Notes under the pieces: generated by a model | What the model saw: the letters and a program-made list of their open reading frames with translations, nothing else | Told to the model about the DNA's origin: nothing | Databases searched by the model: none | Assembly: GCA_945893125.1 (NCBI GenBank) | Contig: CAMDDY010000001.1 | Location: 1-45,307, forward strand | Length of the DNA: 45,307 nucleotides | Direction: 5' to 3' | From: Bordetella parapertussis | GTDB taxonomy: Bacteria; Pseudomonadota; Gammaproteobacteria; Burkholderiales; SG8-41 | Shown here: one piece after another, positions 23,120 through 35,498 of the stretch | Layout of the letters: each line of letters opens with the position of its first letter | Position numbering within the stretch: the first letter of the stretch is position 1 | Made by a program: the position numbers and the translations under genes

Positions 23120-23185
23120 GAAAGCGCGTGCGCGAAATGGAAGATTTGCGGTACCCGCGCGTGGCTATGCCAACCAGCGCGGGGA

Positions 23186-24106
23186 TCAGGCCAAGCCGAG
23201 CTTGGCTGAAATGGTCTTGAGATCAAGGCCGTGCGCCGCTTGCAATTCGGTATGGCTGCCATAGTTGTGAATAAACTCGTCCTGCAGAGCAAAGCTGTCG
23301 AGCTGGCATTTGGCACGGGTGTCCCACGCGATTTCTTTGATGCGCGGACCGAGGCCGCCATACGGGGCCATTTCCTCGATCACAATCACGCGTTTATGGC
23401 TGTGTAGCGCCTTGCTCACGCCCTCCACGTCCAACGGCTTTACCGTGTGCGCCGATACCAATGAAACGCTTTCCCCGCGTGCCTCGAATTTGGCGGCCAG
23501 ATCCGATCCGAGTTTGAGGATGGGGCCATAACCGATGATGCAGACATCGGCGCCGCGCTTGATATAACGCAACTTGCCGAATTCAAACGCGTCGATCGCC
23601 TTGGATGTGAGGTCTGGCTCGCCGGCTTTGCCCAAACGCAGATAAACCGGACCGCGTTCCTGTTTGATGCACCATAGCGTCGCCAAGCGCGCTTCGTGCG
23701 GATCGCACGGCGCGATCACTGCCATATTGGGGATCGCGCAGGCAACCGCCACATCCTCCTGCGCGTGATGCGTGCTGCCCAGCGTGGAATAGGTGATGCC
23801 GCCACCGATGCCGACAACTGTTACCGGCAGATTGTGGTAACAGAGATCGTCTCGCACAAACTCGAACGGGCGGAACAGCGTGAACGTCGCGATCGTGTAT
23901 GCAAACGGGCGCAGCCCGCGCAGCGCCATTCCAGCGCACAAACCGATCATAATCTGTTCGGCAACGCCGGTATTGATGAATCGGTCCGGAAACGTCTGCC
24001 GGAATTTGTCCATGGCGCCGGCGGGAGAAATGTCGGCAACCACCACGCACAGGCGCGGATCCTGCTGCCCTGCCTCGAAGAACGTATTGGCAAACATGTT
24101 TCTCAT
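23186..24106 (-). CDS. transketolase-family, C-terminal (pyrimidine-binding) subunit
   Basis: 306 aa. FINTGVAEQ, GSTHHAQEDVA and PVYLRLGK motifs are typical of split transketolase subunit B. Confidence 0.9.
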   Translation of the reverse strand: MRNMFANTFFEAGQQDPRLCVVVADISPAGAMDKFRQTFPDRFINTGVAEQIMIGLCAGMALRGLRPFAYTIATFTLFRPFEFVRDDLCYHNLPVTVVGIGGGITYSTLGSTHHAQEDVAVACAIPNMAVIAPCDPHEARLATLWCIKQERGPVYLRLGKAGEPDLTSKAIDAFEFGKLRYIKRGADVCIIGYGPILKLGSDLAAKFEARGESVSLVSAHTVKPLDVEGVSKALHSHKRVIVIEEMAPYGGLGPRIKEIAWDTRAKCQLDSFALQDEFIHNYGSHTELQAAHGLDLKTISAKLGLA

Positions 24107-24948
24107 GACGCCACCTCGGCCAACTCAGCCAACGCCTTCTGATACTCGTCTTTGTTCGGAGAACGATAGTGCCAGATCGGCACATGCTCCATGTACGACA
24201 CGCCCTTGCCTTTCACCGTTTTACCGACCACCATGAACGGTCGCTCGCCACTGCGTGTCGCCACCGCGCTGAATACTTCCGCTGCGTCGTGACCATTGAC
24301 CTCGACGGCTTCCCACCCGAAAGCCCGTGCCTTGTCCAACACGGGGTAAAAGTGCGGATGGGTTTCCGACGTGCGCCCCAGCCCCTGAAAATCATTCAGG
24401 TCGAGAAAAGCGACGAGATTATTCAGGCCGAGATTGGCGACCATCATCATTGCTTCCCACGTCGATCCTTCCTGCAGTTCGCCATCCGACAGCACTACAA
24501 AAACCTGCCGGTCGGTTTTTTTTATTTTTTCTGCATAGGCCATGCCCGCCGAGATCCCCATGCCATGGCCGAGCGAACCGGTGGATGCCTCGATCCCGGG
24601 CACCCCATAATCCGGGTGCGCACCAAGCTTGCCGAGCGGCGTGCAATACCGGTCAAGATCGTTCTTGGTGAGAATGCCAAAGTCCTCAAGAATCACGTAC
24701 TGCGAAAGGCAGCCGTGCCCCTTGGACATCACAAAACTGTCCTGCGTGCCGTTGCCCGAATGATCGCGGCGCATCAGCCCGTTGTAAATAACGTCGACCA
24801 TCTCCAGACAGGAAAACGCAGGCGCCACATGCAGCGCCGTCACCTGCTGCGAGATATCAAGGATGCGCCGCCGGTAGCGCAAGCAACGCTGGCGAGCGGC
24901 GACCGCATCAAAGTTCTCGCTACGCTGAACTCCCATGGTCCGCTGCAT
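24103..24948 (-). CDS. transketolase-family, N-terminal (ThDP-binding) subunit
   Basis: STGSLGHGMG and LSDGELQEGSTWEA (ThDP/Mg motif). Start set at ATG 24948, sharing 1 nt with the stop of the upstream SDR. ATGA overlap with subunit B. Alternative starts at 24978 and 24936. Confidence 0.85.
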   Translation of the reverse strand: MQRTMGVQRSENFDAVAARQRCLRYRRRILDISQQVTALHVAPAFSCLEMVDVIYNGLMRRDHSGNGTQDSFVMSKGHGCLSQYVILEDFGILTKNDLDRYCTPLGKLGAHPDYGVPGIEASTGSLGHGMGISAGMAYAEKIKKTDRQVFVVLSDGELQEGSTWEAMMMVANLGLNNLVAFLDLNDFQGLGRTSETHPHFYPVLDKARAFGWEAVEVNGHDAAEVFSAVATRSGERPFMVVGKTVKGKGVSYMEHVPIWHYRSPNKDEYQKALAELAEVAS

Positions 24949-25937
24949 TACGCGCGCAGCACGTAGTCCATCGGCCAATCACGTAACTGGTCGAGGTACT
25001 TGCGCGCCCAGGATGCCATTTCCTCCAAGCCATCTTCCCAGCCAATTTGCGGTTCCCAGCCAACGTCGCGCTTGATCGCACTCGAATCCAGCCAGTAACG
25101 CGAATCCTGACCGAGCCGGTCACCCGTCATCTCGCACAATTGATCGAATGGCATTTTCAGCGCCGCTGCGCACAGTTCCACCACGCGCTTAATCGAAGTC
25201 GGATCTTTGGGCCCCGCGTTGTAGACTGTCCCGAGCGGTGCTTTTTCATCAACCAGATGAATCGCACGTGCAAGATCCCGCGCGTGGATGTACGATTTTT
25301 CGGCACGGCCGCCGCCGTGCAAAGGCAGCCGCTTGCCAAGGAGTCCGCATACCAAGGTTTTCGGAATCACGCGGTGCAGCAACTGGCCCGGGCAGTAGGC
25401 GTTCGACGGTCGAATAATATTCATCGGGAATTTCAGGACCTTTGAAATCGACAACAAATGCATGTCGAATGCCGCTTTGGACGCCGCATATGGACTGGTG
25501 GGCTGCATCGGCGTATCTTCCTTCGCCGCAAAATCAACCGAGCCGTAAAGTTCGGAGGTCCCGATTTGAATAAAGCGCTCCATGTAGTCGCGCGACATCA
25601 ACTCTTCTGAAAACTTGGCAAGCGCCATTGAGTTTGTTTCGAAAAACCGCCAGGATTTTTTCCACGATACCGCACCTTCACCTTGCGCGGCATAATTGAT
25701 AATGACCTGCGGTTTCTCCTTGTCGAGCAACTCCATTACCGAGTCAAGTTCATGCGTAAGATGGAACGCATGGTACTGGTAATTTTTCCGCTTTTCGACA
25801 TTAAGCGAGAAAGGCTCTGGCCGCAACGGATTGCGGCCGACGCCAATGACCTTCTTGGGATCGGCATTGTCAAGCAGATACAGCGCGGTGTGGATCCCAA
25901 ACGATCCGCCAGCCCCGAAAATGGCGTAAGTTTTCAT
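24948..25937 (-). CDS. extended SDR, NDP-sugar 4,6-dehydratase-like
   Basis: 329 aa. Rossmann motif IFGAGGSFG, GTSELYG, and YAASKAAFD (YxxxK). Confidence 0.8.
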   Translation of the reverse strand: MKTYAIFGAGGSFGIHTALYLLDNADPKKVIGVGRNPLRPEPFSLNVEKRKNYQYHAFHLTHELDSVMELLDKEKPQVIINYAAQGEGAVSWKKSWRFFETNSMALAKFSEELMSRDYMERFIQIGTSELYGSVDFAAKEDTPMQPTSPYAASKAAFDMHLLSISKVLKFPMNIIRPSNAYCPGQLLHRVIPKTLVCGLLGKRLPLHGGGRAEKSYIHARDLARAIHLVDEKAPLGTVYNAGPKDPTSIKRVVELCAAALKMPFDQLCEMTGDRLGQDSRYWLDSSAIKRDVGWEPQIGWEDGLEEMASWARKYLDQLRDWPMDYVLRA

Positions 25938-25984
25938 TGAATTTTCGCTGCCTCTCCCTGAATTAAGGGCGCAAGTTTAATTAC

Positions 25985-26641
25985 TTATTCTAGTATCGTC
26001 CAGTACCAGTCGCCCGTGTAACCGGCTTCTTTAAATAGTTTGTTCCAACCATCCGGATAGTCGTGAAACTTGGCAGTCAACACCCACGACAAAAACAGCT
26101 CCCGCTGGGCTGGCGTTCGATACGAATCGACCTGAATGAAGCCACGGCCCGGCGCGAGACGCTCTACCTCTCGCACCGCACGTATTGCATCGTGACGCTC
26201 GAAGTTATGTATGGTATTGAGGGAGATCACTGCACTGAAGCTGTTGTCCGGAAATGGAAGTTTATCGCCACTGCCCAGATGCAGTCGCCCGACCACCTCC
26301 GGCTCGCAATGCATAAGCGCATATTCCGAGATATCCAGGCCGAATACTTCGAGTCCGGGACAGACTTTCAACAAATCCTTCACCAGGAACCCCTTGGCGC
26401 ATCCGACATCGAGCACGCGATCGCCGGGCTTGAGGCTGAAGTGCTTGATGATATCTTCGGCGATAGGTATCCAGCGTCCGTCGTAGCGATAACCGCCATA
26501 GCCGACCTCGCGCGGACCGTCGAAATACTGCTCTCCATATTGACGCGAAATTGCGATGTTCTCGGGTGTCTGCGCTTCCTTGCGCTTTTCAATATTGCGC
26601 TTGGACTTCGGCAACCGCGCCAGCAAATTGATTTCTGCCAT
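25985..26641 (-). CDS. class I SAM-dependent methyltransferase
   Basis: Trimmed to MAEINLL... at 26641, which shares 1 nt with the upstream stop. Motif I is RVLDVGCAKG. Confidence 0.8.
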   Translation of the reverse strand: MAEINLLARLPKSKRNIEKRKEAQTPENIAISRQYGEQYFDGPREVGYGGYRYDGRWIPIAEDIIKHFSLKPGDRVLDVGCAKGFLVKDLLKVCPGLEVFGLDISEYALMHCEPEVVGRLHLGSGDKLPFPDNSFSAVISLNTIHNFERHDAIRAVREVERLAPGRGFIQVDSYRTPAQRELFLSWVLTAKFHDYPDGWNKLFKEAGYTGDWYWTILE

Positions 26642-27528
26642 CAGATCTTCTCCTCGGATAACTTCATTGCCAGCGCCAGTCCCTCTTCCAGCGGCGTAAA
26701 CCGGAACGCGGGAAAAGCCTGGCGACATGCAGTGATATCGAAAAAGCGATGCACTAGGTGCGGGCGCGGTACGGTGCGCGGGTTCTCCTGGACCTTGACC
26801 TTGTTCCCGAACTGCGCCGCAATGATGTGAGCGATTCGGTTAAAAGATGTCGCCACCCCGGTTGCGGCATTGAGCGCGCCGCGGCTGCGGTGAAACAGCA
26901 TCAAACGCGCAATCTCTGCCAAATCATCCACGCTGATGTGATCGCGCTGCTCTTCACCCTCGCCGAACAGCGAAATCGCCTCGCCGCGCTGCGTCTGCCG
27001 CCGAAAACGATTCGGTCCGTAACCGTTATGCGGATCACCTGCACCGTAGATCAGTGTCGGGCGCAGCATGGCAGTCGGTGCCGTTACGGTGGTTTTGAGC
27101 ATCAACTCGCGTGCCGCGTGCATCATGCCGTGCAGCGTCGAGGGCGCACAGCAGGATTCTTCGGTGACGGGATTCGCATCATCGGCGTAGACAGCATCCG
27201 AGCTGATATAGAGCAAATGATGGATTGGCACCGCGGCGAGCGCCTCGCATACGGCCTCTGCCATCCGCAGGTTCTGCATCAGCATCGCAACGTTCTTGGC
27301 CGGTGCGATGGCCGACACCATGACAACGCTGTCATCCGGCCTTAACATGGATTTCAATTTCACTGCGGCGTCCACCGCCATCAGGTCGATTTGCCTGCGC
27401 GTCAACGCAAGTGTTTTGACATCGCATGCCAAGAGACACCGGTTGATAGCACCGCCCACAAAGCCGCCAGCTCCGATTACGATTACGCGTGATGGCTTGA
27501 CTGGCGCTGCGTTGAAATGTTCGAGCAT
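26641..27528 (-). CDS. atypical extended SDR (NAD-dependent epimerase/dehydratase fold, HxxxH instead of YxxxK)
   Basis: 295 aa. Rossmann motif VIGAGGFVGG and ISSDAVY. The expected P-x-x-x-Y-G-x-x-K segment reads PSTLHGMMHAARE. Confidence 0.75.
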   Translation of the reverse strand: MLEHFNAAPVKPSRVIVIGAGGFVGGAINRCLLACDVKTLALTRRQIDLMAVDAAVKLKSMLRPDDSVVMVSAIAPAKNVAMLMQNLRMAEAVCEALAAVPIHHLLYISSDAVYADDANPVTEESCCAPSTLHGMMHAARELMLKTTVTAPTAMLRPTLIYGAGDPHNGYGPNRFRRQTQRGEAISLFGEGEEQRDHISVDDLAEIARLMLFHRSRGALNAATGVATSFNRIAHIIAAQFGNKVKVQENPRTVPRPHLVHRFFDITACRQAFPAFRFTPLEEGLALAMKLSEEKI

Positions 27529-27543
27529 GGTTATCGTTACCCA

Positions 27544-28827
27544 TTATGCGCCGTGCAGGCACGGCTTGCCTAACGTAAAGTATTCGAGCCCCGCTTCTTT
27601 GACACTTGCCTCGTCGAGCACGCGGTAAGGATCAATAATCGCTTTTCCCGCCAATCGGCTCCTAAGATCGGTCGGCTTCAGCTCGCGGAATGCCGGCCAC
27701 GGCGTCATGATCGCAATCACGTCGGCACCGTTCGCCGCATCCAGCGCCGACTCGAAACCGGCACAATTCGGGTGATCGACCACGTTCGCCAGCACCAACG
27801 GATCGAACACTCGCAACCGCCATGGCTTAAGGTGCGCGATCAACGCCAGCGACGGCGAATTCTTGGTCGAGTGGGTGTTTTCCTTGTACGCAAGGCCCAG
27901 CACGGCAATGACGGCATCCGGCTTGCGTGCGATGACTGCAGCATGCAACGTGCGCAATACCCAATGACGGCGGTGCCGGCTATTGCGCACGAAGGCCTGC
28001 ACCAGGCCCGCTTCTGTGCCGGTTTCCTGGCTCAACTGCAATACGGTCGCGAGGTCGCGCTCGAGGTTGCCGCCCGCCAAGCCGAGGCCGGGCGCGAGGT
28101 ATGCAAATTGACCGATACGGCGATCGAGCTTCAAGGCCGGCGCGATCTCGCTCCAGTCGGCGCCTATCCGTTCGCTGAGTTCCGCCAGCGTGTTTGCCAC
28201 GGTGACCGAAGCCACCAAGCAGCAGTTGATTGAAATTTTTGCAAGTTCGGCGCTTTCATACCGCATCGGCAGGAGGGGGCACGCGAACGCGGACAGAAAA
28301 GCGTTGTAATGCCTGGGCAGGGGCTGCATCGGATCGGCGCAACCCACGATAATGCGTTCTGGATGCATCGCGCGATCAAACGCACGGCCGAAAATCAGCG
28401 TCTCGACCTGATAATAAAGCCGTGCGCAATCGAACGTGAGGCTGCGCGTGAACCCGGGTGGGGCCTGGCACAGAATGACAAGCGTTGCCGCAGGCGCCAG
28501 TGCTGCCGCAACCGCGCCGATCAATGCCCTGATGCCGGCGAGATTGCTCTGCCCGCAGTCATCGGTCGGCACGTCGGCTGCGATGTATACCACGTCGCAG
28601 CGTGCAAGGTCGCGCTGATCGGCGGAATATCGGATGCGCCCAGCGTGCTGCCAAAGCATTTCCGGCAGATCCGGCTCGACCACGGGCAGGTCGCCCGCCG
28701 TGAGACGCGCAATGAGCGCTGAATCCGTATCGAAGCACACCGTATCAAAACCGCGTGCTGCACAAGCCGCTGCGGAATTGATGCCAAGATGCGTCATTCC
28801 TGCAAAGCCGACTACACTGCCGCTCAT
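27544..28827 (-). CDS. UDP-glucose/GDP-mannose dehydrogenase family protein lacking the catalytic cysteine
   Basis: Trimmed to MSGSVVGFAGMTHLG at 28827, giving an ATGA overlap with the upstream gene. Three-domain UGDH-like layout (VLGLAYKENT). The active-site motif reads GLGLAGGNLERD where the family has GxGxGGxC(L/F)PKD. Confidence 0.8.
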   Translation of the reverse strand: MSGSVVGFAGMTHLGINSAAACAARGFDTVCFDTDSALIARLTAGDLPVVEPDLPEMLWQHAGRIRYSADQRDLARCDVVYIAADVPTDDCGQSNLAGIRALIGAVAAALAPAATLVILCQAPPGFTRSLTFDCARLYYQVETLIFGRAFDRAMHPERIIVGCADPMQPLPRHYNAFLSAFACPLLPMRYESAELAKISINCCLVASVTVANTLAELSERIGADWSEIAPALKLDRRIGQFAYLAPGLGLAGGNLERDLATVLQLSQETGTEAGLVQAFVRNSRHRRHWVLRTLHAAVIARKPDAVIAVLGLAYKENTHSTKNSPSLALIAHLKPWRLRVFDPLVLANVVDHPNCAGFESALDAANGADVIAIMTPWPAFRELKPTDLRSRLAGKAIIDPYRVLDEASVKEAGLEYFTLGKPCLHGA

Positions 28828-29756
28828 GACTGCACCTGTTGCAATGCTGCTGCACCGAGCTCGCGTAACTGCCGGTTGAGCCACAAGTCATCGGCAAGAT
28901 CGGTGGCAACGCCGCGCTTGCACAGCGCCTTGAAGTACGCATATTCGATTTCCCACGTGGGATCGTCCTGCGCAAGCGTCACCGATTCTTCGGGCGGTCG
29001 CCCGCTCGGCAACAGGCGCGTGCGCAGCGTGAAAGTGCTGGGCCCCCACTTGCACAACGAACGGATATGCGCGCTGCCACGCTCGGCGAACACATCGCAA
29101 GTGAAGTGATTGCGCCATGAGAGCAGCGTCATTTCCAGTTCTAGTTTCGGCGCCGACGTGTTCGACCCAATCACCACATGGTCCGGTGCGCGGTTTTCGA
29201 AGCAATTGACCGAAACAATTTCTAATTTCCCGCCCACATCGCCGAACCAGAACTTCGCGGTATCCAGCAGGTGCGAGCCGAGATCAGGCAGCACGCCCGC
29301 ACCCTGATCTCGCCACTGCGAGTCACGCACCAAGCGCGCCGTACCGTTGCCGTAAAACATCCGGCAACGATATATCTTCCCAAGCCGGCCCGACGCCACG
29401 AGTTCGCGCATGCGCACGAAATGCGGCTCGAAGCGGTGGTTGTATGCGGTGTAGCAGACGGCCTTGTTGGCGCGGGCGATCCGCTGCAGGCGCTCGATAT
29501 CTTCATCCTGCGCGGCCCACAGCGGCTTTTCCACCAGCACGTGCTTGCCGTGACCCAGCAGATAGGACAGAACTTCTATTTTCGGTTCGTCGGGTATGCA
29601 GGCAAGCGCTGCATCATAGCTATCCAGCGGCACATCCTCGATTTTTCGGTATTCAGCCTGGGTGTTGAGCGGATCCACCGCTGCGACAAAATCCGCGCCC
29701 GCGAATTTCCGGCGCTTGTGTCCCTGTACTCCGAGGCCCACGACGATGACGCGCAT
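28824..29756 (-). CDS. Gfo/Idh/MocA family oxidoreductase
   Basis: Trimmed to MRVIVVGLGVQG at 29756. VLVEKP motif present. Confidence 0.8.
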   Translation of the reverse strand: MRVIVVGLGVQGHKRRKFAGADFVAAVDPLNTQAEYRKIEDVPLDSYDAALACIPDEPKIEVLSYLLGHGKHVLVEKPLWAAQDEDIERLQRIARANKAVCYTAYNHRFEPHFVRMRELVASGRLGKIYRCRMFYGNGTARLVRDSQWRDQGAGVLPDLGSHLLDTAKFWFGDVGGKLEIVSVNCFENRAPDHVVIGSNTSAPKLELEMTLLSWRNHFTCDVFAERGSAHIRSLCKWGPSTFTLRTRLLPSGRPPEESVTLAQDDPTWEIEYAYFKALCKRGVATDLADDLWLNRQLRELGAAALQQVQS

Positions 29757-29772
29757 AATGCGACCGTTGATG

Positions 29773-31329
29773 CTAACTGTAATTTGCCTGGCGCTCGACC
29801 GTGTCGATTTTTCGACGGACATCCTCCGGCGTTACCGGAATATTACCGTCGTATTCGCACGCACAGGCCGCAGCAATCGAGCCGAGTATGGTTGCGACCG
29901 TGTCCGACCCGGTCGCTAGCTTGGACAACGTCGCGTAAGCGAGCAAAGCATCGCCCGCACCAACCGCATCGACAACGTGCTCGACAAAACTGTCCAACAC
30001 GCCGAAGGAATCCAGGGAACTGTGATCGCTGCTGCGGCACGTCAGCACGCCACGTTCGCCAAGCTTGAGAATGAGGGTCTTGCATTTAGCGGCATCATAG
30101 AGCGCCGAAGCGAGCGGTCGTATACCCGAGTCCTGATCGCCGAGCGCAAATCTCGCTTCACGCTCATTGGGTGTGATCAGATCGAAACCCTTGAAGTCGG
30201 TGATGTTGCCCCAGCGGCTCGCTACCTGGCTGTCAGCCACTTTGTAGATACCAGCAGGGATGGCTGATATCAGGTGCGGGATCGTACGGCGGTTGTAAAT
30301 GCCATGCCGAAAATCGCTGAACACCACCGCGTCAGTCGCGGTTTCCCGCACGCCTTGGCATAACGTCGCCAACACATCATCGGAAATCGAGCGGTTGTCG
30401 AGTGTGTCGATTTTCAGCAATCGATACCCTCCCGCAACGATAGCGTTCTTGTGGGTCGTCGGCCGCGTCGAATCGATTATCGGACGACACACCACGCCCG
30501 ACTTCGCAAGGCCACTCAGCACGAAATCCTTAAATTTGTCGTCGCCAAGAACGGTCGAAAAAACAACCTCCGCGCCGGCGGCGCGCAGATGCTCGGCAAC
30601 GATTGCCGCGCCACCGATGTAGTCGTCACGCCCCTCGTAGAGCACACTCATGGTCGGCGTCTTGGTCTGCCCACCTATCATCGCGGTCCGCGTATAGCTG
30701 TCGACTATGGTGTCGCCGACCACATGCACACGCTTGCCTTTGAGCTTGTCGAGCGCTTCGCGGAGCGAGGTGAACGTGAGTTTTTCCGAATCCATGAAGG
30801 TGAGGAGTTTCTCGAGCTTGATCGCCGGCGGTGCAAGTTCGATCAGCTTGCTCGATGAGTAAACGATATCCCCCGGCGTAAATAGCAGTTCCCCGCCATA
30901 AGAATGCAGAATCTGCGACTCTTCCTGCGTTTTGGCAGCTACGCCGTTGGACGTGTATTCGTAGCCTTTCGCGAAATAGTCAGGCTGGATGCGGGATATG
31001 TTTTTGAGCGGAGTCGCATCCGTGTCGATGAGAACATAATCGACCAGTTCGAACGCCGCAAGGTTGAGTGCGCGTAGATCCTGCGGCACATGAGGGCGAT
31101 GCTGGCCCTTGGTGATATGAGCGTCGGCGGTGATGCTGGTAACAAGGATATCGGCTTTGCTCTTGGCGTAGATCAGGTGGCGCAGGTGGCCAGGATGCAC
31201 CACATCGAACACGCCGTGGCACATAATCACTTTTTTCTCGCGCGGTCGCGTCCCGACCGCCTTGATCAATTCATCGACCGTCTTGATCTTGTGCCGGTAC
31301 TTTTCGGTCAGCGAAGCGAGTGTGCTCAT
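29773..31329 (-). CDS. bifunctional nucleotidyltransferase (N-terminal, cytidylyltransferase-like) / PfkB sugar kinase (C-terminal); domain-permuted HldE-like
   Basis: 518 aa. The N-terminal domain has HGVFDVVHPGHLRHL (HxGH). The C-terminal domain has VVGDTIVDSY...VDAVGAGDALLA (PfkB signatures). Confidence 0.85.
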   Translation of the reverse strand: MSTLASLTEKYRHKIKTVDELIKAVGTRPREKKVIMCHGVFDVVHPGHLRHLIYAKSKADILVTSITADAHITKGQHRPHVPQDLRALNLAAFELVDYVLIDTDATPLKNISRIQPDYFAKGYEYTSNGVAAKTQEESQILHSYGGELLFTPGDIVYSSSKLIELAPPAIKLEKLLTFMDSEKLTFTSLREALDKLKGKRVHVVGDTIVDSYTRTAMIGGQTKTPTMSVLYEGRDDYIGGAAIVAEHLRAAGAEVVFSTVLGDDKFKDFVLSGLAKSGVVCRPIIDSTRPTTHKNAIVAGGYRLLKIDTLDNRSISDDVLATLCQGVRETATDAVVFSDFRHGIYNRRTIPHLISAIPAGIYKVADSQVASRWGNITDFKGFDLITPNEREARFALGDQDSGIRPLASALYDAAKCKTLILKLGERGVLTCRSSDHSSLDSFGVLDSFVEHVVDAVGAGDALLAYATLSKLATGSDTVATILGSIAAACACEYDGNIPVTPEDVRRKIDTVERQANYS

Positions 31330-32327
31330 GGTCGATTTCCGAGGTATTCAAACCAAGTCTTAGTTGCGACCGAGATCGACTTGGGATCCCATAGCGGGGC
31401 ATCGCGCCAAACATCAATCTCCTGCATCATCATGGCGACGCCCTTTTCGAACGGCACTTGCGGCCGCCATCCCAAGTCCTTCTGGATCTTTTTGACGTCG
31501 GCCCAAGTGCAGTCCGGCTCGCCCGGGCGCTTGGGAATATATTCCTTCTCGCCACCAAGAAGGTCCACCAGCCGGTTCACCGACTGCGGGTTTCCCGCCC
31601 CCAAATTCCAGATCTCGCCCGTCTTGGCGGATTCCGCCGCAAGACGGAATGCCTCCGCAACATCAGTCACATACAGGAAATCCCGCGTCTGCGAGCCGTC
31701 GCCGACTACCGTGAACGACCGGCCGGCGAGCTTCTGCCGGAAAAACACGCCGAATACCGCGCCGTATGCGCCGGTCGTTCGCACGCGCGTCCCGTAAGCG
31801 TTGAATATCCGGACCGAATTCACCGGCAACCGGTAGACCTTGTGCCAGTGGAAGCAGGCAACCTCGCCCATCCATTTCGACAAGGCATACGGATAGTGCG
31901 GCTCGATCGGATGATCTTCGCGCGTGGGTGTCGCAGCCAGTCCGTAACAGGAGGAGGATGCCGCATAGACCAGTTTTCGCACTTTAGCGTCGCGCGCGCA
32001 TTCGAGCACCTTGACCGTACCCTGCACGTTCGCCGACATGTATTCGGCGGGATGCTCGATCGACGGCACGATATCGCCTATCCCGGCAAAATGAAAAACA
32101 TGACGCACGTCCCGAAACAGCGCGTCACCCGGCTCGAGATCGCGCACATCGCGCTTTTCAAGAGAGAAATCCGGATTGGCCGCTTGGTGCGCGACATTGC
32201 TCTCGCGGCCGCTGACGAAATTATCAACAGCCCTGACCCTGTATCCCTGGCCGAGCAGGTTGTCGACCATGTGACTGCCGATAAACCCCGCACCGCCGGT
32301 GACTACGGCGATGGGCTTGACTGTCAT
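31326..32327 (-). CDS. extended SDR, NDP-sugar epimerase/decarboxylase-like
   Basis: 333 aa. [11 protein letters not shown] and YPYALSKWMGE. ATGA overlaps on both sides. Confidence 0.85.
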   Translation of the reverse strand: MTVKPIAVVTGGAGFIGSHMVDNLLGQGYRVRAVDNFVSGRESNVAHQAANPDFSLEKRDVRDLEPGDALFRDVRHVFHFAGIGDIVPSIEHPAEYMSANVQGTVKVLECARDAKVRKLVYAASSSCYGLAATPTREDHPIEPHYPYALSKWMGEVACFHWHKVYRLPVNSVRIFNAYGTRVRTTGAYGAVFGVFFRQKLAGRSFTVVGDGSQTRDFLYVTDVAEAFRLAAESAKTGEIWNLGAGNPQSVNRLVDLLGGEKEYIPKRPGEPDCTWADVKKIQKDLGWRPQVPFEKGVAMMMQEIDVWRDAPLWDPKSISVATKTWFEYLGNRP

Positions 32328-33319
32328 TGAACGCCCAGCCTCTTCATGCGCTTGACGTTGTAATAAATATCGTCCGTCATGCTGTCCGGGAGCTTGCCGG
32401 CTTTGAATGCCTTACACAGATCGCGCACGGCATCCTCGATAGTATGCTTGGGCTTGAATCCGATCACACGGGCGATTTTGTCCGAATTGATGTGATAGGA
32501 GCGAATGTCGTCGCTGGGTGTGGTCACGAGTTCGATATCACCCTTCTCGGGATATTCTTCTTTTACTACTTTGCGAACCGCCTTCGCGATATCCATGATG
32601 CTCAGGTTCTGGTAACCGGCATTGAACGTCTGCCCTGCGATTTTCTCCGCCGGCAACTCGATCAGCAGTTGATACAGATCACACATGTCCTGGATATGCA
32701 GGTTGGGGCGTAACTGGCCACCGCCAAAAACCGTGATCTTATTGTTATTGACCGCGTGATTGGTGAGAATATTGACCGACAAATCCATGCGTGTGCGCGG
32801 GCTATAGCCGCACACTGTCGCTGGACGTATCGTAACGCACGTGAAGTCGGGTCCCTGATGCTTCCATAGCAGCGGCTCGCACATGCCCTTGTATTTGTTA
32901 TAGAGCGACACCGGCACCAGCGGATGATCCTCCGTCACGTCGGGTTTGTCGGAAACGCCATACACCGAGCTTGACGAGCAATAGACAAAGCGCTTGACTC
33001 CCGCTTTCTTGGCCGCAATAACCATCGGCTCGAATGCGTCCATATTGACACTGGTAGACAGCTTTTCGTCGAGCTCGAAACTCGCGTCGTTCGAAACGCA
33101 TGCAAGCGACAGCATGACATCAATGCCCTTGAACATGTCCGCATACTTGGCAATCTCGCGGATGTCCCCCGTGACGAGCTTCAGATTCTGGTGCTTCGGC
33201 AAGTGATTACCGTAAAGATAGGTGTCAAAAACGGTGACGTTGTAACCGGCGTTCAGCAGTTGCGGCGTGAGAACGCAACCCACATAGCCGGCACCGCCCG
33301 TGATGAGGACGTTTTTCAT
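32324..33319 (-). CDS. extended SDR, NDP-sugar epimerase/dehydratase family
   Basis: 331 aa. ITGGAGYVGC, SSSSVYG and LYNKYKGMCE (YxxxK). Confidence 0.85.
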   Translation of the reverse strand: MKNVLITGGAGYVGCVLTPQLLNAGYNVTVFDTYLYGNHLPKHQNLKLVTGDIREIAKYADMFKGIDVMLSLACVSNDASFELDEKLSTSVNMDAFEPMVIAAKKAGVKRFVYCSSSSVYGVSDKPDVTEDHPLVPVSLYNKYKGMCEPLLWKHQGPDFTCVTIRPATVCGYSPRTRMDLSVNILTNHAVNNNKITVFGGGQLRPNLHIQDMCDLYQLLIELPAEKIAGQTFNAGYQNLSIMDIAKAVRKVVKEEYPEKGDIELVTTPSDDIRSYHINSDKIARVIGFKPKHTIEDAVRDLCKAFKAGKLPDSMTDDIYYNVKRMKRLGVQ

Positions 33320-33349
33320 ATTAGCCTGTAGTTAAGTGAAAAGAATCAT

Positions 33350-34105
33350 TCAACCGGCGGCGCGGCGCGCTGCCGCAGGTGCTTCGCCGGCAATCGTGAA
33401 ACCGGCGGCGACCGCGTCGCGGCGAAACATCTCGACGGTTTCGAGCGAATAGTCGTCGAGGTTCTTGCCGACCAGATTAAGCTTGGCCAGCACGTCGTTG
33501 GTTACCGTGATGATGTGGCAGCCGATCGCATCCGCCTGAAAGATATTGAGCAGTTCACGCGGACTGGCCCAGATCAATTCAGCCTTGGGTTTCGACTTCA
33601 TAATCCTGACCGCTTGCGCCATCAACGGCACCGGGTCTACGCCGGTGTCGGCGACGCGGCCCGCGAAAACCGAAATGATCGCCGGAGTTCCCGGCACGAG
33701 GCAATCAGTCACCTGCTGAACCTGATCGAGCGTCATGATCGCGGTGACATTCACGGCAACACCGGCCTTGGACAACTCGCGAATCAACCGACCTGAAAAT
33801 TCACGCCGGGTATTAGTCACCGGAATTTTGACATTAACATTCTTACCCCAAGACGCAATCACCTTCGCCTGGCGCTCCATTTCGTCGAACTCGTCAGCAA
33901 ACACTTCCAGAGACACAGGCCGATCAGGCACTGCAGCCAACAGCTTGCGTGCGAACGCTTCGTATTCTGCGATCCCCACCTTACGCATCAACGTCGGATT
34001 CGTAGTGAATCCCTTGATCAACGGATTCGCGTACATTTTCATGATCCCGTCGAAATCGGCGCCGTCGGCGAAAATTTTGACGCGCAACTTATCGATGGAT
34101 GTCAT
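33350..34105 (-). CDS. transaldolase / fructose-6-phosphate aldolase family protein
   Basis: 251 aa. GFTTNPTL and the Schiff-base lysine context NVNVKIPVT. Confidence 0.85.
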   Translation of the reverse strand: MTSIDKLRVKIFADGADFDGIMKMYANPLIKGFTTNPTLMRKVGIAEYEAFARKLLAAVPDRPVSLEVFADEFDEMERQAKVIASWGKNVNVKIPVTNTRREFSGRLIRELSKAGVAVNVTAIMTLDQVQQVTDCLVPGTPAIISVFAGRVADTGVDPVPLMAQAVRIMKSKPKAELIWASPRELLNIFQADAIGCHIITVTNDVLAKLNLVGKNLDDYSLETVEMFRRDAVAAGFTIAGEAPAAARRAAG

Positions 34106-34125
34106 TGCGAATTTTTCCCCTGGAT

Positions 34126-34677
34126 TTAAACTAACGATAGAATCGAGCGTGTGGCGAAACCAAGCGTACGCGCATAATTATTAGGTATAGCCAACCGCAA
34201 CTCTCTATAGCCGCGATCGATGAAGAAAGTATAACATCCAACCGCTTGCCCAGCAACGATATCCCCCCACCGGTCACCCACCATGAAGCTCCGGGCAAGG
34301 TCGATATCCCACTCCTTGGCGGCCTCGACCAATAGCCCCGGTTTCGGCTTGCGGCACTCACATCCCTCGTTCTGCCGGTGAGGACACACCTTGATATCGT
34401 CTACCGGCAAACGATTCATGAGCTTGTCGTGCATAGCTTCAACGACGTTAACGTCGACGAGGCCGTTGCCAATATCCGGTTGATTGGTCACGACAATCAC
34501 CAGCAACCCTGCGTGTTTAAGGGACTGCACTGCGGGAATCACCCCGGGAAGCAGACGAAAATCCTCGACGCGGCGCGGCGCATAAGGTTTGCCATCGCGC
34601 ACTTCGCAGCGGTTGATTACGCCGTCGCGGTCGAGAAAAACCGCGCGGTGCTTACTGACAATTCGGGACTCCGGCAC
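34126..34677 (-). CDS. gmhB: HAD-IIIA sugar bisphosphate phosphatase (D,D-heptose 1,7-bisphosphate phosphatase-like)
   Basis: 183 aa. FLDRDGVIN nucleophile motif and GmhB-type Zn/Cys motif CPHRQNEGCECRKPKPG. Confidence 0.8.
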   Translation of the reverse strand: MPESRIVSKHRAVFLDRDGVINRCEVRDGKPYAPRRVEDFRLLPGVIPAVQSLKHAGLLVIVVTNQPDIGNGLVDVNVVEAMHDKLMNRLPVDDIKVCPHRQNEGCECRKPKPGLLVEAAKEWDIDLARSFMVGDRWGDIVAGQAVGCYTFFIDRGYRELRLAIPNNYARTLGFATRSILSLV

Positions 34678-34716
34678 GTTTGCGCAGGCGCGATGTAATA
34701 GATGACAAGCAACCGC

Positions 34717-35478
34717 CTAAGGCGGCGTAGTCTGGGTATTCATCCGGTGATACTCTTTTGCCACATCGGCTGTGCTGCCGGTGGCAATGATCCGGCCATG
34801 ATCCATCAGCACCGCCTTGTTGCACATCACATTGATCAAGGCATCGGAATGCGATGCGAGAACCAGTATGCTCGATCGCTCGATCAGCGCATCAATGCGT
34901 TTCTTTACGCGTTCCTGAAACCGTGCATCCCCGGCACCCAAGCCTTCGTCCAGCAACAGAATTTCCGGATTGATTGCGGTTGCAATCGCGAACCCAAGCC
35001 GCGTTAGCATTCCTGTGGAATAGGTACGCACGGGCAGCGAAAGATACTCGCCGAGTTCGGTAAACTCCTCGATTTCCGGAGTCTTGAGCCGGATCTCCTC
35101 GCGGGTCATGCCGAGATAGAGACCGCAAGTCAGGATGTTCTCGTAACCGGTATCGTCCATGCTAAGTCCAGGGGCCGTATTAAGCAATGGCGAAAGTCGG
35201 CCCTCGGTAATGACGCGGCCTGACAGAGGTTCGTACACGCCCGCCAGCACACGCAACAAAGTGGATTTGCCGGCGCCATTGTGGCCGATGAACCCGATGC
35301 GATCTCCGTGCGCGATCGTCAGAGAAATATCGTCCAGCGAGCGCACTGTCACCCGATCACTTTTCTTGCCTTCCCGCCTTATGAGACCACCCGCCCGTGA
35401 CAATAAAGCGGTGCGAAAGCTATGGTGCCCGTAGATCGGGAAATCGACCGTGACGTGCTCAAGAATAATGGATGCCAA
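34717..35478 (-). CDS. wzt: polysaccharide ABC exporter ATP-binding protein (NBD only, 253 aa)
   Basis: Walker A GHNGAGKST, signature YSTGM, Walker B ILLLDE. I place the start at TTG 35478, 7 nt downstream of GAGGAGGA. The 389-aa track ORF extends out of frame into wzm. Confidence 0.8.
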   Translation of the reverse strand: MASIILEHVTVDFPIYGHHSFRTALLSRAGGLIRREGKKSDRVTVRSLDDISLTIAHGDRIGFIGHNGAGKSTLLRVLAGVYEPLSGRVITEGRLSPLLNTAPGLSMDDTGYENILTCGLYLGMTREEIRLKTPEIEEFTELGEYLSLPVRTYSTGMLTRLGFAIATAINPEILLLDEGLGAGDARFQERVKKRIDALIERSSILVLASHSDALINVMCNKAVLMDHGRIIATGSTADVAKEYHRMNTQTTPP

Positions 35479-35498
35479 CTCGAAATCCTCCTCGTCCG

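What the first reader, a model, noticed from the sequence alone, without database searches (positions are those of the whole stretch)
27544..28827. UGDH-family protein with the nucleophilic Cys replaced by Asn, and PKD replaced by ERD
In UDP-glucose/GDP-mannose dehydrogenases the two-step oxidation to the uronic acid needs the Cys of GxGxGGxC(L/F)PKD. The wbpO-like gene in this same window keeps it (GLVGGHCIGVDP).

The aligned segment here is GLGLAGGNLERD. I verified Asn codon AAC at 28066-28068 on the minus strand; the whole motif spans 28054-28074. Without the thiol the enzyme cannot form the thiohemiacetal or thioester. It is therefore either a single-step dehydrogenase (alcohol to aldehyde/ketone) or a non-redox scaffold.

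Its start overlaps (ATGA) the stop of a Gfo/Idh/MocA oxidoreductase. This argues for a two-protein redox or dehydration machine.
Basis: seen in the sequence. Interest (0 to 1): 0.7.

Follow-up and report, generated by a model that had tools for sequence, protein, structure and literature searches.

The report
Cysteine-less sugar dehydrogenase paired with oxidoreductase
This gene encodes a conserved, widespread variant of the sugar-acid-forming UDP-glucose dehydrogenase family that has lost the catalytic cysteine and is always coupled to a second oxidoreductase inside an operon predicted to build an unusual long-chain (probably eight-carbon) sugar for a cell-surface polysaccharide.

Summary
ORF 27544-28827 (-) is a three-domain UGDH-family protein. 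GGNLERD replaces GGxC(F/L)PKD (Cys->Asn254, Pro->Glu, Lys->Arg). Its ATG overlaps the TGA of an upstream Gfo/Idh/MocA gene.

This is not decay. 118 of 120 close homologues keep GNLERD. Among 128 diverse relatives (down to 32% identity), the column is Asn in 113 and His in 10, never Cys. No other Cys is conserved. Tyr10, Thr118 and Glu145 equivalents have also changed. The Lys/Asn/Asp/Glu set and the Rossmann fold are kept.

The gene lies in a cassette found in at least 459 species genomes: GmhA-like isomerase, GmhB-like phosphatase, transaldolase, two SDRs, HldE-like kinase/nucleotidyltransferase, Gfo, this protein, an atypical SDR and a methyltransferase. Gfo is adjacent in 77 of 80 loci, with the 4-nt overlap in 61 of 76.

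The gene set mirrors the lincomycin octose genes LmbR/N/K/P/O/M/Z/L. There, LmbL (UGDH-like) and LmbZ (Gfo) are reported to act as a 6,8-dehydratase.

Most likely this is a one-step NAD-dependent dehydrogenase working with Gfo and the SDR on the side chain of an NDP-octose. I could not test orthology to LmbL, the substrate or the chemistry.

The parts
27544..28827 (-). Cys-less UGDH-family protein ('UGDHx'), 427 aa
   Evidence: It has the three Pfam domains PF03721, PF00984 and PF03720. TIGR03026 scores 190.1 bits against a cutoff of 189.8. The AF2 model has pLDDT 82.9, and Foldseek top hits are BceC, UgdG and human UGDH.
28054..28074 (-). GGNLERD motif, replacing GGxC(F/L)PKD; the Asn254 codon AAC is at 28066-28068
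   Evidence: Sequence read directly. Alignment to 4a7p, 3gg2 and 2y0e. Subfamily column counts.
28783..28800 (-). Altered dinucleotide fingerprint G-M-T-H-L-G (residues 10-15), in place of GxGYVG; His13 replaces the Tyr10 equivalent
   Evidence: Alignment to 4a7p and 2y0e. His13 is present in 120 of 128 representatives, and position 12 is Ser or Thr in 116 of 128.
28824..28827 (-). ATGA start/stop overlap between the Gfo gene and UGDHx (translational coupling)
   Evidence: Seen in the window. The same 4-nt overlap occurs in 61 of 76 related loci.
28824..29756 (-). Gfo/Idh/MocA oxidoreductase partner, 310 aa, with an intact catalytic fingerprint
   Evidence: Pfam PF01408, PF22725 and PF02894. 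GxGxxG, EKP and D-x-x-x-H are conserved in 72-77 orthologues.
26641..27528 (-). Atypical extended SDR ('SDR_c'), third member of the triad; YxxxK is replaced by H-G-M-M-H
   Evidence: Pfam Epimerase and RmlD_sub_bind. Present in 76 of 80 loci. Motif conservation across orthologues.
29773..31329 (-). HldE-like bifunctional nucleotidyltransferase and PfkB sugar kinase, with the domain order swapped
   Evidence: rfaE_dom_II matches residues 28-164 and rfaE_dom_I matches 194-507.
31326..33319 (-). Two extended SDR epimerase/dehydratase-type genes (SDR_b 31326-32327 and SDR_a 32324-33319)
   Evidence: Family hits. Each is present in 37 of 38 loci with full flanks.
33350..34105 (-). Dedicated transaldolase
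   Evidence: TIGR02134 scores 350.9 bits against a cutoff of 281.95. Present in 35 of 38 full-flank loci.
34126..34677 (-). GmhB-like HAD-IIIA sugar-bisphosphate phosphatase
   Evidence: NCBIfam hits. Present in 33 of 38 full-flank loci.
36433..37020 (-). GmhA-like SIS ketose-phosphate isomerase
   Evidence: TIGR00441 and PRK13936 hits, below cutoff. Present in 31 of 38 full-flank loci.
34717..36296 (-). Wzm/Wzt-type polysaccharide ABC exporter (membrane subunit 35499-36296, ATPase 34717-35556)
   Evidence: Gene calls and family hits.
25985..26641 (-). Class I SAM methyltransferase (MT2), a core cassette gene
   Evidence: Pfam hits. Present in 37 of 38 full-flank loci.
23186..25937 (-). Accessory tailoring genes: 4,6-dehydratase-like SDR (24948-25937) and a split transketolase/DXS-like ThDP enzyme (24103-24948 and 23186-24106)
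   Evidence: Family hits. DH46 is present in 18 of 38 and TK in 23 of 38 full-flank loci.

Best explanation
**What it is.** UGDHx belongs to a deep, widespread subfamily of the UDP-glucose/GDP-mannose dehydrogenase fold. The subfamily has kept the machinery for the first hydride transfer: the NAD Rossmann domain, Lys197, Asn201, Asp258 and Glu142. It has lost what the second oxidation needs: the Cys nucleophile and the equivalents of Tyr10, Thr118 and Glu145.

**Proposed function.** I propose it is an active, NAD-dependent, one-step dehydrogenase that oxidises a side-chain hydroxyl of a nucleotide-activated higher sugar. The most likely target is the C6 secondary alcohol of an NDP-octose. That reaction gives a ketone, which cannot be oxidised further and therefore needs no thiol.

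**Partners.** It works as a unit with the translationally coupled Gfo/Idh/MocA oxidoreductase and the following SDR. The likely sequence is oxidation, then elimination or rearrangement (6,8-dehydration, by analogy with LmbL plus LmbZ/CcbZ of lincosamide biosynthesis), then keto-reduction in place of the LmbS transamination. The product would be an 8-deoxy or otherwise remodelled octose. It is then methylated, and in some lineages 4,6-dehydrated and C2-branched. Export would be in a Wzm/Wzt-dependent surface polysaccharide.

**Shown.** The residue pattern, the fold, the conservation, the synteny, the coupling and the fusions.

**Inferred.** The substrate (octose rather than heptose), the regiochemistry, the dehydration step and the division of labour between the two proteins.
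For: **Residue pattern**
- By alignment to 4a7p/2y0e-type UGDHs and the 128-representative alignment: Cys->Asn254 (N 113, H 10 of 128), Lys->Arg257, Tyr10->His13, Thr118->Gln121, Glu145->Phe146.
- Lys197, Asn201, Asp258 and Glu142 are at least 93% conserved.
- No Cys column is conserved above 79%.

**Fold**
- UGDH fold with a predicted N-terminal beta-alpha-beta unit. Asp33 is conserved at the position where the 4a7p alignment places the Asp of 'vcvDkD'.

**Coupling to Gfo**
- Gfo is adjacent in 77 of 80 loci, and the 4-nt overlap occurs in 61 of 76.
- The Gfo partner keeps GxGxxG, EKP and DxxxH.

**Triad with an SDR**
- SDR_c follows in 76 of 80 loci.
- Distant variants replace it with a classical adh_short ketoreductase. 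In P0237 this reductase is fused to UGDHx and is seen on 4 contigs.
- One Gfo::UGDHx fusion was found (P0195).

**Cassette context**
- The same core cassette surrounds members at 35-48% identity.
- Pathway context includes a dedicated transaldolase, a GmhA-like isomerase, a GmhB-like phosphatase, an HldE-like kinase/nucleotidyltransferase and SDR epimerases.
- These correspond one-to-one to LmbR, N, K, P, O and M. LmbL is listed as 'dehydrogenase' and LmbZ as 'NAD(P)-dependent oxidoreductase' in the thiooctose operon lmbVTQRSOPZNML. LmbM, LmbL, CcbZ and CcbS convert GDP-octose to GDP-lincosamide (PMC12945683 Table 1 and text; PMC4351081 Table 2).
- That LmbL plus CcbZ perform the 6,8-dehydration is my recollection of Wang et al., PNAS 2020. 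That paper could not be read here.

**Loss outside the cassette**
- Relatives found outside the cassette (P0186/P0271, P0227) have also lost the Asn.
Against: - No LmbL, CcbL or LmbZ sequence could be obtained. Homology beyond the Pfam family level is untested, and I do not know whether LmbL itself lacks the Cys.
- The kinase/nucleotidyltransferase is HldE-type. From memory, LmbP/LmbO are of a different type.
- The core cassette has no aminotransferase.
- The transaldolase passes an 'ordinary transaldolase' equivalog model (TIGR02134). It could simply supply sedoheptulose-7-P, making the substrate a heptose. A 6,8-dehydration is impossible on a heptose.
- The GxGxxG middle glycine is replaced by Thr/Ser, so NAD binding is inferred, not shown.
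- SDR_c lacks YxxxK, so its role as a reductase is uncertain.
- The AF2 model is low-confidence around residues 238-250, just before the motif. No coordinates were available to inspect the pocket.
- The Gfo::UGDHx fusion is a single observation. A 1-nt assembly error at the overlap could produce it.
Confidence: 0.5

Rival explanations
1. UGDHx is a terminal-alcohol dehydrogenase that stops at the aldehyde. It oxidises the primary C7/C8 hydroxyl to an aldehyde, as in the first half-reaction of UGDH. Without the Cys the aldehyde is released and serves as acceptor for the split transketolase, which extends or branches the chain by two carbons.
For: The UGDH family normally acts on the terminal primary alcohol, and the first-half-reaction residues are retained. 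Split transketolase genes lie in the same operon in the window and in many loci. Transketolases need an aldehyde acceptor (established enzymology).
Against: TK genes are accessory, present in only 23 of 38 loci with at least 9 kb on both sides. Gfo and UGDHx are present in 38 of 38 and SDR_c in 36 of 38. Distant cassettes (P0269, P0136, P0249) have the triad without TK. This model gives no role to the invariably coupled Gfo.
Confidence: 0.15
2. The substrate is an NDP-heptose, not an octose. The transaldolase only boosts the sedoheptulose-7-P supply. Gfo, UGDHx and SDR_c carry out an oxidation/reduction (epimerisation or keto formation) at C6/C7 of the heptose side chain.
For: GmhA-, GmhB- and HldE-like genes are the ADP-heptose toolkit. 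The transaldolase passes the ordinary transaldolase equivalog TIGR02134.
Against: S7P is a central metabolite. From my own knowledge, known NDP-heptose operons do not carry a dedicated transaldolase, and the one precedent I know (LmbR) makes octulose-8-P. The SIS and HldE-like proteins score far below the equivalog cutoffs (48 vs 209 bits; 148 vs 521 bits), consistent with an altered substrate. Three redox proteins would be excessive for an epimerisation that HldD does alone.
Confidence: 0.2
3. UGDHx is a catalytically dead pseudo-enzyme. It serves as a scaffold or as an NDP-sugar-binding or allosteric subunit for the Gfo oxidoreductase.
For: Several canonical catalytic residues are lost and GxGxxG is altered. 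The tight translational coupling suggests a stoichiometric complex.
Against: The replacements are themselves highly conserved (Asn254 in 113 of 128; His13, Gln121 and Arg257 at 93% or more), rather than drifting. Lys197, Asn201, Asp258 and Glu142 are also 93% or more conserved, and Asp33 is present in 109 of 128 representatives. This is the pattern of a re-tooled active site. Relatives that leave the cassette lose these residues.
Confidence: 0.1
4. UGDHx is a normal uronic-acid-forming dehydrogenase that uses another nucleophile, either a different Cys (C120, C202 or C203) or the hydrated aldehyde.
For: In this lineage C120 sits next to the Thr118-equivalent position, and C202/C203 follow the catalytic Asn201.
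Against: Across the subfamily these positions are Ser (105 of 128) and L/M/I/A/F or F/Y/M/L. No Cys is conserved above 79%. Residues implicated in thioester hydrolysis in canonical enzymes (Tyr10 in BceC, per the titles of PDB 2y0c-e; Thr118 and Glu145 from my own knowledge) are also replaced.
Confidence: 0.03

Closest known systems
LmbL (UGDH-family 'dehydrogenase') plus LmbZ/CcbZ (Gfo/Idh/MocA oxidoreductase) of lincomycin/celesticetin thiooctose biosynthesis
   Same: Both pair a UGDH-family protein with a Gfo/Idh/MocA protein inside a sugar-nucleotide operon. That operon also encodes a transaldolase (LmbR), a SIS isomerase (LmbN), a HAD phosphatase (LmbK), a kinase (LmbP), a nucleotidyltransferase (LmbO) and an SDR epimerase (LmbM) (PMC12945683 Table 1; PMC4351081 Table 2; window genes). 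Neither system produces a uronic acid. From memory of PNAS 2020, the lincosamide pair performs a 6,8-dehydration of a GDP-octose.
   Different: Sequence relationship to LmbL/LmbZ is untested. The kinase/nucleotidyltransferase here is a fused, domain-swapped HldE type. The next step is an SDR, or in variants a classical ketoreductase, rather than the PLP enzyme LmbS. In the window and most related loci the two genes are adjacent and translationally coupled, whereas lmbZ and lmbL are separated by lmbN and lmbM (operon lmbVTQRSOPZNML). The context is a Wzm/Wzt surface-polysaccharide locus of environmental Gram-negative and other phyla, not an actinomycete antibiotic cluster.
Canonical UDP-glucose/GDP-mannose/UDP-GlcNAc 6-dehydrogenases (Ugd, BceC, UgdG, AlgD, TviB/WbpO, human UGDH)
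   Same: They share the three-domain fold and family HMMs. UGDHx is 20-26% identical in the Foldseek alignments, with phmmer E-values down to 7e-41. The conserved Lys, Asn, Asp and first Glu of the active site are retained.
   Different: The catalytic Cys is Asn. PKD is ERD. GxGYVG is G(L/M)(S/T)HLG. The Thr118 equivalent is Gln and the Glu145 equivalent is Phe. TIGR03026 is passed by only 0.3 bits. The window's own TviB-like protein scores 376.6 bits on the same model and keeps the Cys.
ADP-L-glycero-beta-D-manno-heptose pathway (GmhA, HldE, GmhB, HldD)
   Same: The same enzyme families build the sugar nucleotide.
   Different: All members score far below the equivalog cutoffs. The HldE domains are swapped. 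A dedicated transaldolase, Gfo, UGDHx and a methyltransferase are added.
SDR-type NDP-hexose 4,6-dehydratases (RmlB, Gmd)
   Same: The proposed net chemistry is the same: oxidise, eliminate a gamma-hydroxyl, then reduce. This would give a keto-deoxy sugar nucleotide. This is inference.
   Different: The protein folds are entirely different, two or three polypeptides are used instead of one, and the side-chain positions C6-C8 are targeted rather than C4-C6.

Membership tests
UDP-glucose/GDP-mannose dehydrogenase family (PF03721/PF00984/PF03720; TIGR03026) | Three-domain architecture (NAD-binding, central, NDP-sugar-binding) and family HMM scores above the cutoffs | tested here: met
   All three Pfam domains score above the gathering thresholds. 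TIGR03026 scores 190.1 against a cutoff of 189.8, which is marginal.
UDP-glucose/GDP-mannose dehydrogenase family (PF03721/PF00984/PF03720; TIGR03026) | UGDH fold | tested here: met
   The AF2 model has pLDDT 82.9. Foldseek top hits are BceC 2y0e, UgdG 4a7p and hUGDH, with probability 1.00 and TM about 0.75.
UDP-glucose/GDP-mannose dehydrogenase family (PF03721/PF00984/PF03720; TIGR03026) | Catalytic Cys nucleophile in GGxC(F/L)PKD | tested here: not met
   The position is Asn254 in the window. Across 128 representatives it is N 113, H 10 and never Cys. No alternative Cys is conserved.
UDP-glucose/GDP-mannose dehydrogenase family (PF03721/PF00984/PF03720; TIGR03026) | Catalytic Lys, Asn and Asp (S. 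pyogenes K204, N208, D264 equivalents) | tested here: met
   K197 is present in 125 of 129 aligned sequences, N201 in 125 of 129 and D258 in 129 of 129.
UDP-glucose/GDP-mannose dehydrogenase family (PF03721/PF00984/PF03720; TIGR03026) | GxGYxG dinucleotide fingerprint | tested here: not met
   The window has G-M-T-H-L-G. The middle Gly is Ser or Thr in 116 of 128 representatives, and the Tyr is His in 120 of 128. The predicted beta-alpha-beta unit and Asp33 are retained.
UDP-glucose/GDP-mannose dehydrogenase family (PF03721/PF00984/PF03720; TIGR03026) | Four-electron oxidation of the primary alcohol to a uronic acid | not testable with these tools
   This needs an enzyme assay. The sequence argues against it.
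LmbL/LmbZ(CcbZ)-type two-protein NDP-octose 6,8-dehydratase | A UGDH-family protein acting together with a Gfo/Idh/MocA protein | tested here: met
   At the gene-pair level only. The genes are adjacent in 77 of 80 loci, the 4-nt overlap occurs in 61 of 76, and one fusion was found.
LmbL/LmbZ(CcbZ)-type two-protein NDP-octose 6,8-dehydratase | Embedded in an octose-nucleotide pathway (transaldolase, SIS isomerase, HAD phosphatase, kinase, nucleotidyltransferase, SDR epimerase) | tested here: inconclusive
   All these enzyme classes are present and co-conserved. However, the classes are shared with heptose pathways, and the kinase/NT are of HldE type. The C8 product is not shown.
LmbL/LmbZ(CcbZ)-type two-protein NDP-octose 6,8-dehydratase | Sequence orthology to LmbL/CcbL and LmbZ/CcbZ | not testable with these tools
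   No LmbL or LmbZ sequence was reachable. The key papers are not held. There are no close plasmid hits and no solved structure.
LmbL/LmbZ(CcbZ)-type two-protein NDP-octose 6,8-dehydratase | Followed by a PLP-dependent C6 transaminase (LmbS/CcbS) | tested here: not met
   The core cassette has an SDR or ketoreductase instead. DegT genes appear only in some variants, for example P0136, and far upstream in the window.
LmbL/LmbZ(CcbZ)-type two-protein NDP-octose 6,8-dehydratase | 6,8-dehydratase activity | not testable with these tools
   This needs an in vitro reconstitution.
Gfo/Idh/MocA oxidoreductases (for the partner, 28824-29756) | N-terminal GxGxxG, the EKP motif, and the D-x-x-x-H catalytic pair | tested here: met
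   GLGVQG, LVEKPL (72 of 75) and LPDLGSHLLD (64 of 77, with D and H in all variants listed, which cover 75 of the 77) are conserved. They align to inositol dehydrogenase 4hkt.

The most novel reading that the evidence does not exclude
Environmental bacteria from at least seven phylum- or class-level groups carry a horizontally spread, so far undescribed pathway for a nucleotide-activated eight-carbon sugar. The groups are Nitrospirota, Acidobacteriota, Gemmatimonadota, Thermodesulfobacteriota and Alpha-, Beta- and Gammaproteobacteria, and at least 459 species genomes are involved. The key step would be carried out by a new three-part side-chain deoxygenation/remodelling system. Its parts are a re-tooled Cys-less UGDH scaffold (His13, Gln121, Asn254, Arg257), a Gfo/Idh/MocA oxidoreductase and an SDR with HxxxH in place of YxxxK. 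This would be a route to keto-deoxy higher sugars that is mechanistically distinct from the SDR 4,6-dehydratases. It would also make the lincosamide LmbL/LmbZ step a specialised offshoot of a much larger primary, cell-envelope enzyme family.
Probability: 0.35. Interest if true: 0.75.

Novelty: new variant of a known kind. Interest (0 to 1): 0.6.

Why it matters
Databases label this protein 'UDP-glucose 6-dehydrogenase' or 'nucleotide sugar dehydrogenase'. The sequence says it cannot carry out that reaction by the known mechanism.

The protein defines a large subfamily, with at least 149 clusters at 50% identity, and has a clean diagnostic signature: G(L/M)(S/T)HLG ... Q ... GGN(L/I)ERD. An obligate Gfo partner accompanies it.

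If the proposed function is right, three things follow:
- A widespread mis-annotation could be corrected.
- A common but unrecognised higher-carbon sugar in the surface polysaccharides of soil and groundwater bacteria, including Nitrospira and Azospirillum, would be revealed.
- Enzymologists would gain a natural experiment showing how the UGDH scaffold was converted from a four-electron to a two-electron (or dehydratase-coupled) catalyst.

Three cultured carriers make the question directly testable: Azospirillum rugosum, A. griseum and Marinibaculum pumilum.

Tried and rejected
**1. Retrieving LmbL/LmbZ for a direct alignment failed.**
- PNAS 2020 (DOI and PMC7547251), the ChemBioChem review and the two JACS papers are not held.
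- Literature searches returned only gene tables.
- tblastn against plasmids gave only canonical UGDHs at 32% identity or less.
- Cluster look-ups of high-GC representatives gave no names.

**2. Product ideas.**
- Erwiniose and caryophyllose are rejected. Per PMC9306805 they arise from YerE-type ThDP enzymes acting on a 3,6-dideoxy-4-keto-hexose.
- Bradyrhizose is not supported. I considered C10 as C8 plus C2, because PMC4743980 describes an uncharacterised 11-gene sugar operon. The ORS285 gdh primers and their encoded peptides match none of the loci. A search from the Bradyrhizobium-MAG orthologue returned no named photosynthetic Bradyrhizobium.

**3. Pseudogene or decay is rejected**, given the conservation of the substitutions.

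**4. An alternative active-site Cys is rejected at subfamily level**. It could not be checked on coordinates because the model's coordinates are not exposed.

**5. P0226 looked like a Cys-containing member of the clade.** It is a tandem of two canonical UGDHs whose scores add up.

**6. No complex prediction was possible.** The structure tool takes single chains and window-derived sequences only, so it was not attempted.

**7. No paper in the held library describes this cassette**.
Full report
**1. The observation**

On the minus strand, an ORF runs from the ATG at 28825-28827 to the TAA at 27544-27546 and encodes 427 aa. The context gtcATGAgc shows that the ATG overlaps the TGA stop (28824-28826) of the preceding Gfo/Idh/MocA ORF, 28824-29756. 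AAC at 28066-28068 encodes Asn254. The full GLGLAGGNLERD runs to 28089.

The protein has the three UGDH Pfam domains. It passes the NCBIfam 'nucleotide sugar dehydrogenase' model by only 0.3 bits, 190.1 against 189.8. HMMER alignments to solved UGDHs (4a7p, 3gg2, 2y0e) place G-G-N-L-E-R-D on G-S-C-F-P-K-D. An AF2 model (pLDDT 82.9) has UGDH structures as its top Foldseek hits, with probability 1.00 and TM about 0.75. The second UGDH-family gene of the window (20293-21573, +, TviB-like at 376.6 bits on TIGR03026) keeps the Cys in GL-VGGHCIGVDP.

**2. It is a conserved subfamily, not a damaged gene**

Of the 120 closest database proteins (66-100% identity), 118 carry the Asn motif. A profile search over 1.84 billion cluster representatives returned 150 top hits, down to 32% identity to the window protein. 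Of these, 149 are Cys-less. The one exception is a tandem of two canonical UGDHs whose scores add.

In a 128-sequence alignment of full-length representatives, the Cys column is Asn in 113 and His in 10, with V, Q, D and E once each. The other replacements are equally fixed:

| Canonical residue | In UGDHx | Conservation |
|---|---|---|
| Tyr of GxGYVG | His13 | 120 of 128 |
| Middle Gly of GxGxxG | Ser or Thr | 116 of 128 |
| Thr118 equivalent | Gln121 | 123 |
| Glu145 equivalent | Phe146 | 106 |
| Lys of PKD | Arg257 | 128 |

The residues retained are Lys197, Asn201, Asp258 and Glu142 (the first Glu of NPEF), together with Asp33. The predicted N-terminal beta-alpha-beta unit is also retained.

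No Cys column exceeds 79% conservation. The window's C120 and C202/C203 lie next to active-site elements in sequence, but they are Ser and hydrophobic residues in most relatives. I could not inspect coordinates.

From my own knowledge of UGDH enzymology, the replaced residues are Cys260, Thr118 and Glu145 (S. pyogenes numbering) and Tyr10 of BceC. The titles of PDB 2y0c-e tie Tyr10 to 'the final step' of the reaction. These are the residues associated with thiohemiacetal/thioester formation and hydrolysis. The retained Lys, Asn and Asp serve the first hydride transfer. The pattern is that of an active site re-tooled to stop after one oxidation.

**3. Genomic context**

The window is an ENA metagenome contig. 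Its closest relatives are Burkholderiales-type MAGs.

The gene sits in a long minus-strand operon, in this order:
- GmhA-like SIS isomerase (36433-37020)
- Wzm/Wzt exporter (34717-36296)
- GmhB-like HAD phosphatase (34126-34677)
- transaldolase (33350-34105; passes TIGR02134)
- two extended SDRs (31326-33319)
- an HldE-like protein with swapped domains (29773-31329)
- Gfo (28824-29756)
- UGDHx (27544-28827)
- an atypical SDR (26641-27528)
- a SAM methyltransferase (25985-26641)
- a 4,6-dehydratase-like SDR (24948-25937)
- a split transketolase/DXS-like ThDP enzyme (23186-24948)
- a NUDIX hydrolase

A scan of one genome per GTDB species found at least 459 genomes with a relative. The best 80 loci (57-72% identity) come from Nitrospirota, Acidobacteriota, Gemmatimonadota, Thermodesulfobacteriota and Alpha-, Beta- and Gammaproteobacteria. 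They include the cultured Azospirillum rugosum, A. griseum and Marinibaculum pumilum.

tblastn mapping of the window proteins shows the same cassette order almost everywhere. Gfo is directly upstream of UGDHx in 77 of 80 loci, and the other three are truncated there. SDR_c follows in 76 of 80.

Among 38 loci with at least 9 kb on both sides:

| Gene | Loci present (of 38) |
|---|---|
| Gfo | 38 |
| UGDHx | 38 |
| SDR_a | 37 |
| SDR_b | 37 |
| KinNT | 37 |
| MT2 | 37 |
| SDR_c | 36 |
| TAL | 35 |
| HAD | 33 |
| SIS | 31 |
| transketolase | 23 |
| 4,6-dehydratase-like gene | 18 |
| NUDIX | 16 |

The last three are accessory genes.

The 4-nt ATGA/GTGA overlap between Gfo and UGDHx is present in 61 of 76 loci. 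The Gfo partner keeps GxGxxG, EKP and D-x-x-x-H in essentially all orthologues.

Members as distant as 35-48% identity (P0269, P0136, P0158) lie in the same core cassette. In two divergent variants the third gene is a classical adh_short ketoreductase. In one of these (P0237, seen on four contigs) it is fused to the N-terminus of UGDHx. A single Gfo::UGDHx fusion (P0195) also exists, but an assembly error at the overlap could produce it.

Degenerate relatives that have lost the Asn (P0186/P0271, P0227) have also lost Gfo and the cassette.

**4. What it most likely does**

The cassette contains everything needed to turn a ketose phosphate into a nucleotide sugar by the heptose logic: isomerase, anomeric kinase, distal phosphatase and nucleotidyltransferase. 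It adds a dedicated transaldolase.

The only characterised pathway I know with that combination is the thiooctose branch of lincomycin and celesticetin. Its operon lmbVTQRSOPZNML encodes a transaldolase (R), isomerase (N), kinase (P), phosphatase (K), nucleotidyltransferase (O), epimerase (M), a UGDH-type 'dehydrogenase' (L), an 'NAD(P)-dependent oxidoreductase' of the Gfo family (Z) and a transaminase (S). LmbM, LmbL, CcbZ and CcbS together convert GDP-octose to GDP-lincosamide (PMC12945683; PMC4351081 Table 2). From memory of Wang et al. (PNAS 2020, not readable here), LmbL and CcbZ jointly catalyse the 6,8-dehydration.

The window operon reproduces eight of these nine functions. It replaces the transaminase with an SDR or ketoreductase.

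My best explanation (confidence 0.5) has four parts:
- UGDHx keeps the family's C6 regiochemistry but acts on the secondary C6 alcohol of an NDP-octose. The product is a ketone, so no thiol is needed.
- With Gfo, the 8-hydroxyl is eliminated and the enol or enone is reduced.
- The third enzyme reduces the 6-ketone.
- Methylation follows, with optional 4,6-dehydration and ThDP-dependent C2 addition.

The invariant His13 is a candidate acid/base for the elimination. All of this paragraph is inference. What is shown is the residue pattern, the fold, the conservation, the synteny, the coupling and the fusions.

**5. Rivals**

- **(a) Aldehyde for the transketolase (0.15).** A terminal alcohol is oxidised to an aldehyde that feeds the transketolase. 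This is attractive chemically. However, TK is accessory (23 of 38 loci) while the triad is universal.
- **(b) The sugar is a heptose (0.2).** The transaldolase passes an ordinary-transaldolase model, so this cannot be excluded. It would change the chemistry (no 6,8-dehydration) but not the 'one-step dehydrogenase with Gfo' reading.
- **(c) Pseudo-enzyme or scaffold (0.1).** This is disfavoured by the fixation of both the retained and the replacement residues.
- **(d) Normal uronic-acid formation with another nucleophile (0.03).** This is disfavoured by the absence of any conserved Cys.

**6. Comparison and novelty**

The protein is a structural member of the UGDH family but fails two of its defining sequence features, the Cys and the GxGYxG fingerprint. 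It should not be annotated as a 6-dehydrogenase that forms a uronic acid.

Functionally the closest known system is LmbL/LmbZ. Membership in that system is untested at the sequence level. It is contradicted in one feature (no transaminase) and inconclusive in another (the C8 product).

I found no paper in the held library that describes this cassette. Sources name the protein 'UDPglucose 6-dehydrogenase' or 'nucleotide sugar dehydrogenase'.

I rate it a new variant of a known kind, with interest 0.6. A specialist would find three things surprising and directly testable: the breadth and sharpness of the Cys-less clade, the obligate Gfo coupling, and the second atypical enzyme (SDR with HxxxH) in the same operon. 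The LmbL/LmbZ precedent limits the conceptual novelty.

**7. Limits**

- No LmbL sequence was available.
- No model coordinates were available.
- No complex prediction was possible.
- The AF2 model has low confidence for residues 238-250.
- Product identity is unknown. The erwiniose/caryophyllose idea is rejected, and the bradyrhizose idea is unsupported.

Noticed in passing
window 26641-27528 (-): The SDR immediately downstream of UGDHx is an extended SDR whose catalytic YxxxK is H-G-M-M-H. In the orthologues checked (about 60), the Lys position is always His, and the Tyr position is His in most and Tyr in a minority. This is a second conserved 'missing catalytic residue' in the same operon. 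The ENA gene call (start 27459) also cuts off its GAGGFVGG loop, so the ATG at 27528 is the likelier start.
   Followed up: partly
window 29773-31329 (-): The HldE-like bifunctional enzyme has the opposite domain order to E. coli HldE. The nucleotidyltransferase (rfaE_dom_II) matches residues 28-164 and the PfkB kinase (rfaE_dom_I) matches 194-507. Both score far below the equivalog cutoffs.
   Followed up: no
loci L002-L081 versus window 22649-37020: The cassette proteins are mostly 55-90% identical between Nitrospirota, Acidobacteriota, Gemmatimonadota, Thermodesulfobacteriota and Proteobacteria, with gene order preserved; SDR_c, the ABC subunits and NUDIX drop to about 40%. This implies horizontal spread of the whole cassette. 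Nearly all carriers are uncultured soil or groundwater MAGs.
   Followed up: partly
window 23186-25937 (-): A split transketolase/DXS-like ThDP enzyme (N and C halves as separate, overlapping genes) and a 4,6-dehydratase-like SDR form an accessory module. They are present in 23 and 18 of 38 complete loci respectively, which suggests lineage-specific C2 branching or extension of the sugar. Locus L082 carries two such TK pairs.
   Followed up: partly
L061, L066, L072, L073: In four loci an extra SDR_c-like gene is inserted between Gfo and UGDHx, breaking the usual overlap.
   Followed up: no
L088 8560-10728 (P0237); L086 1434-3593 (P0195): Two natural fusions were found. An adh_short ketoreductase::UGDHx fusion occurs in a low-GC lineage and is seen on 4 contigs. 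A single Gfo::UGDHx fusion could be a 1-nt assembly artefact at the ATGA overlap.
   Followed up: partly
L089/L090 (P0271, cluster of P0186); L091 (P0227): Some relatives have degraded motifs (GDLGRD or EELERD, with altered N-terminal fingerprints). They lie outside the cassette, with no Gfo. One has only SIS and NUDIX neighbours, and the other has unrelated genes. They look like relics.
   Followed up: partly
window 39865-45044 (-): Further upstream on the same strand lie a radical SAM/SPASM protein (39865-40923), an FkbM-type methyltransferase (41023-42276), a 496-aa protein with no Pfam hit (42185-43675) and a DegT aminotransferase (43770-45044). A 399-aa protein with no family hit lies at 37177-38376 and recurs weakly in 7 loci.
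   Followed up: no
window 20293-22627 (+): A convergent TviB/TviC-like pair (UDP-GlcNAc 6-dehydrogenase with the canonical Cys, plus a C4 epimerase) would supply UDP-GalNAcA for the same polysaccharide.
   Followed up: partly
window 15610-20186 (+): An Aldolase_II::adh_short fusion (659 aa) sits with a PNP_UDP_1 phosphorylase and an IF-2B/MtnA-like isomerase. This looks like a methylthioribose salvage set next to the polysaccharide locus.
   Followed up: no
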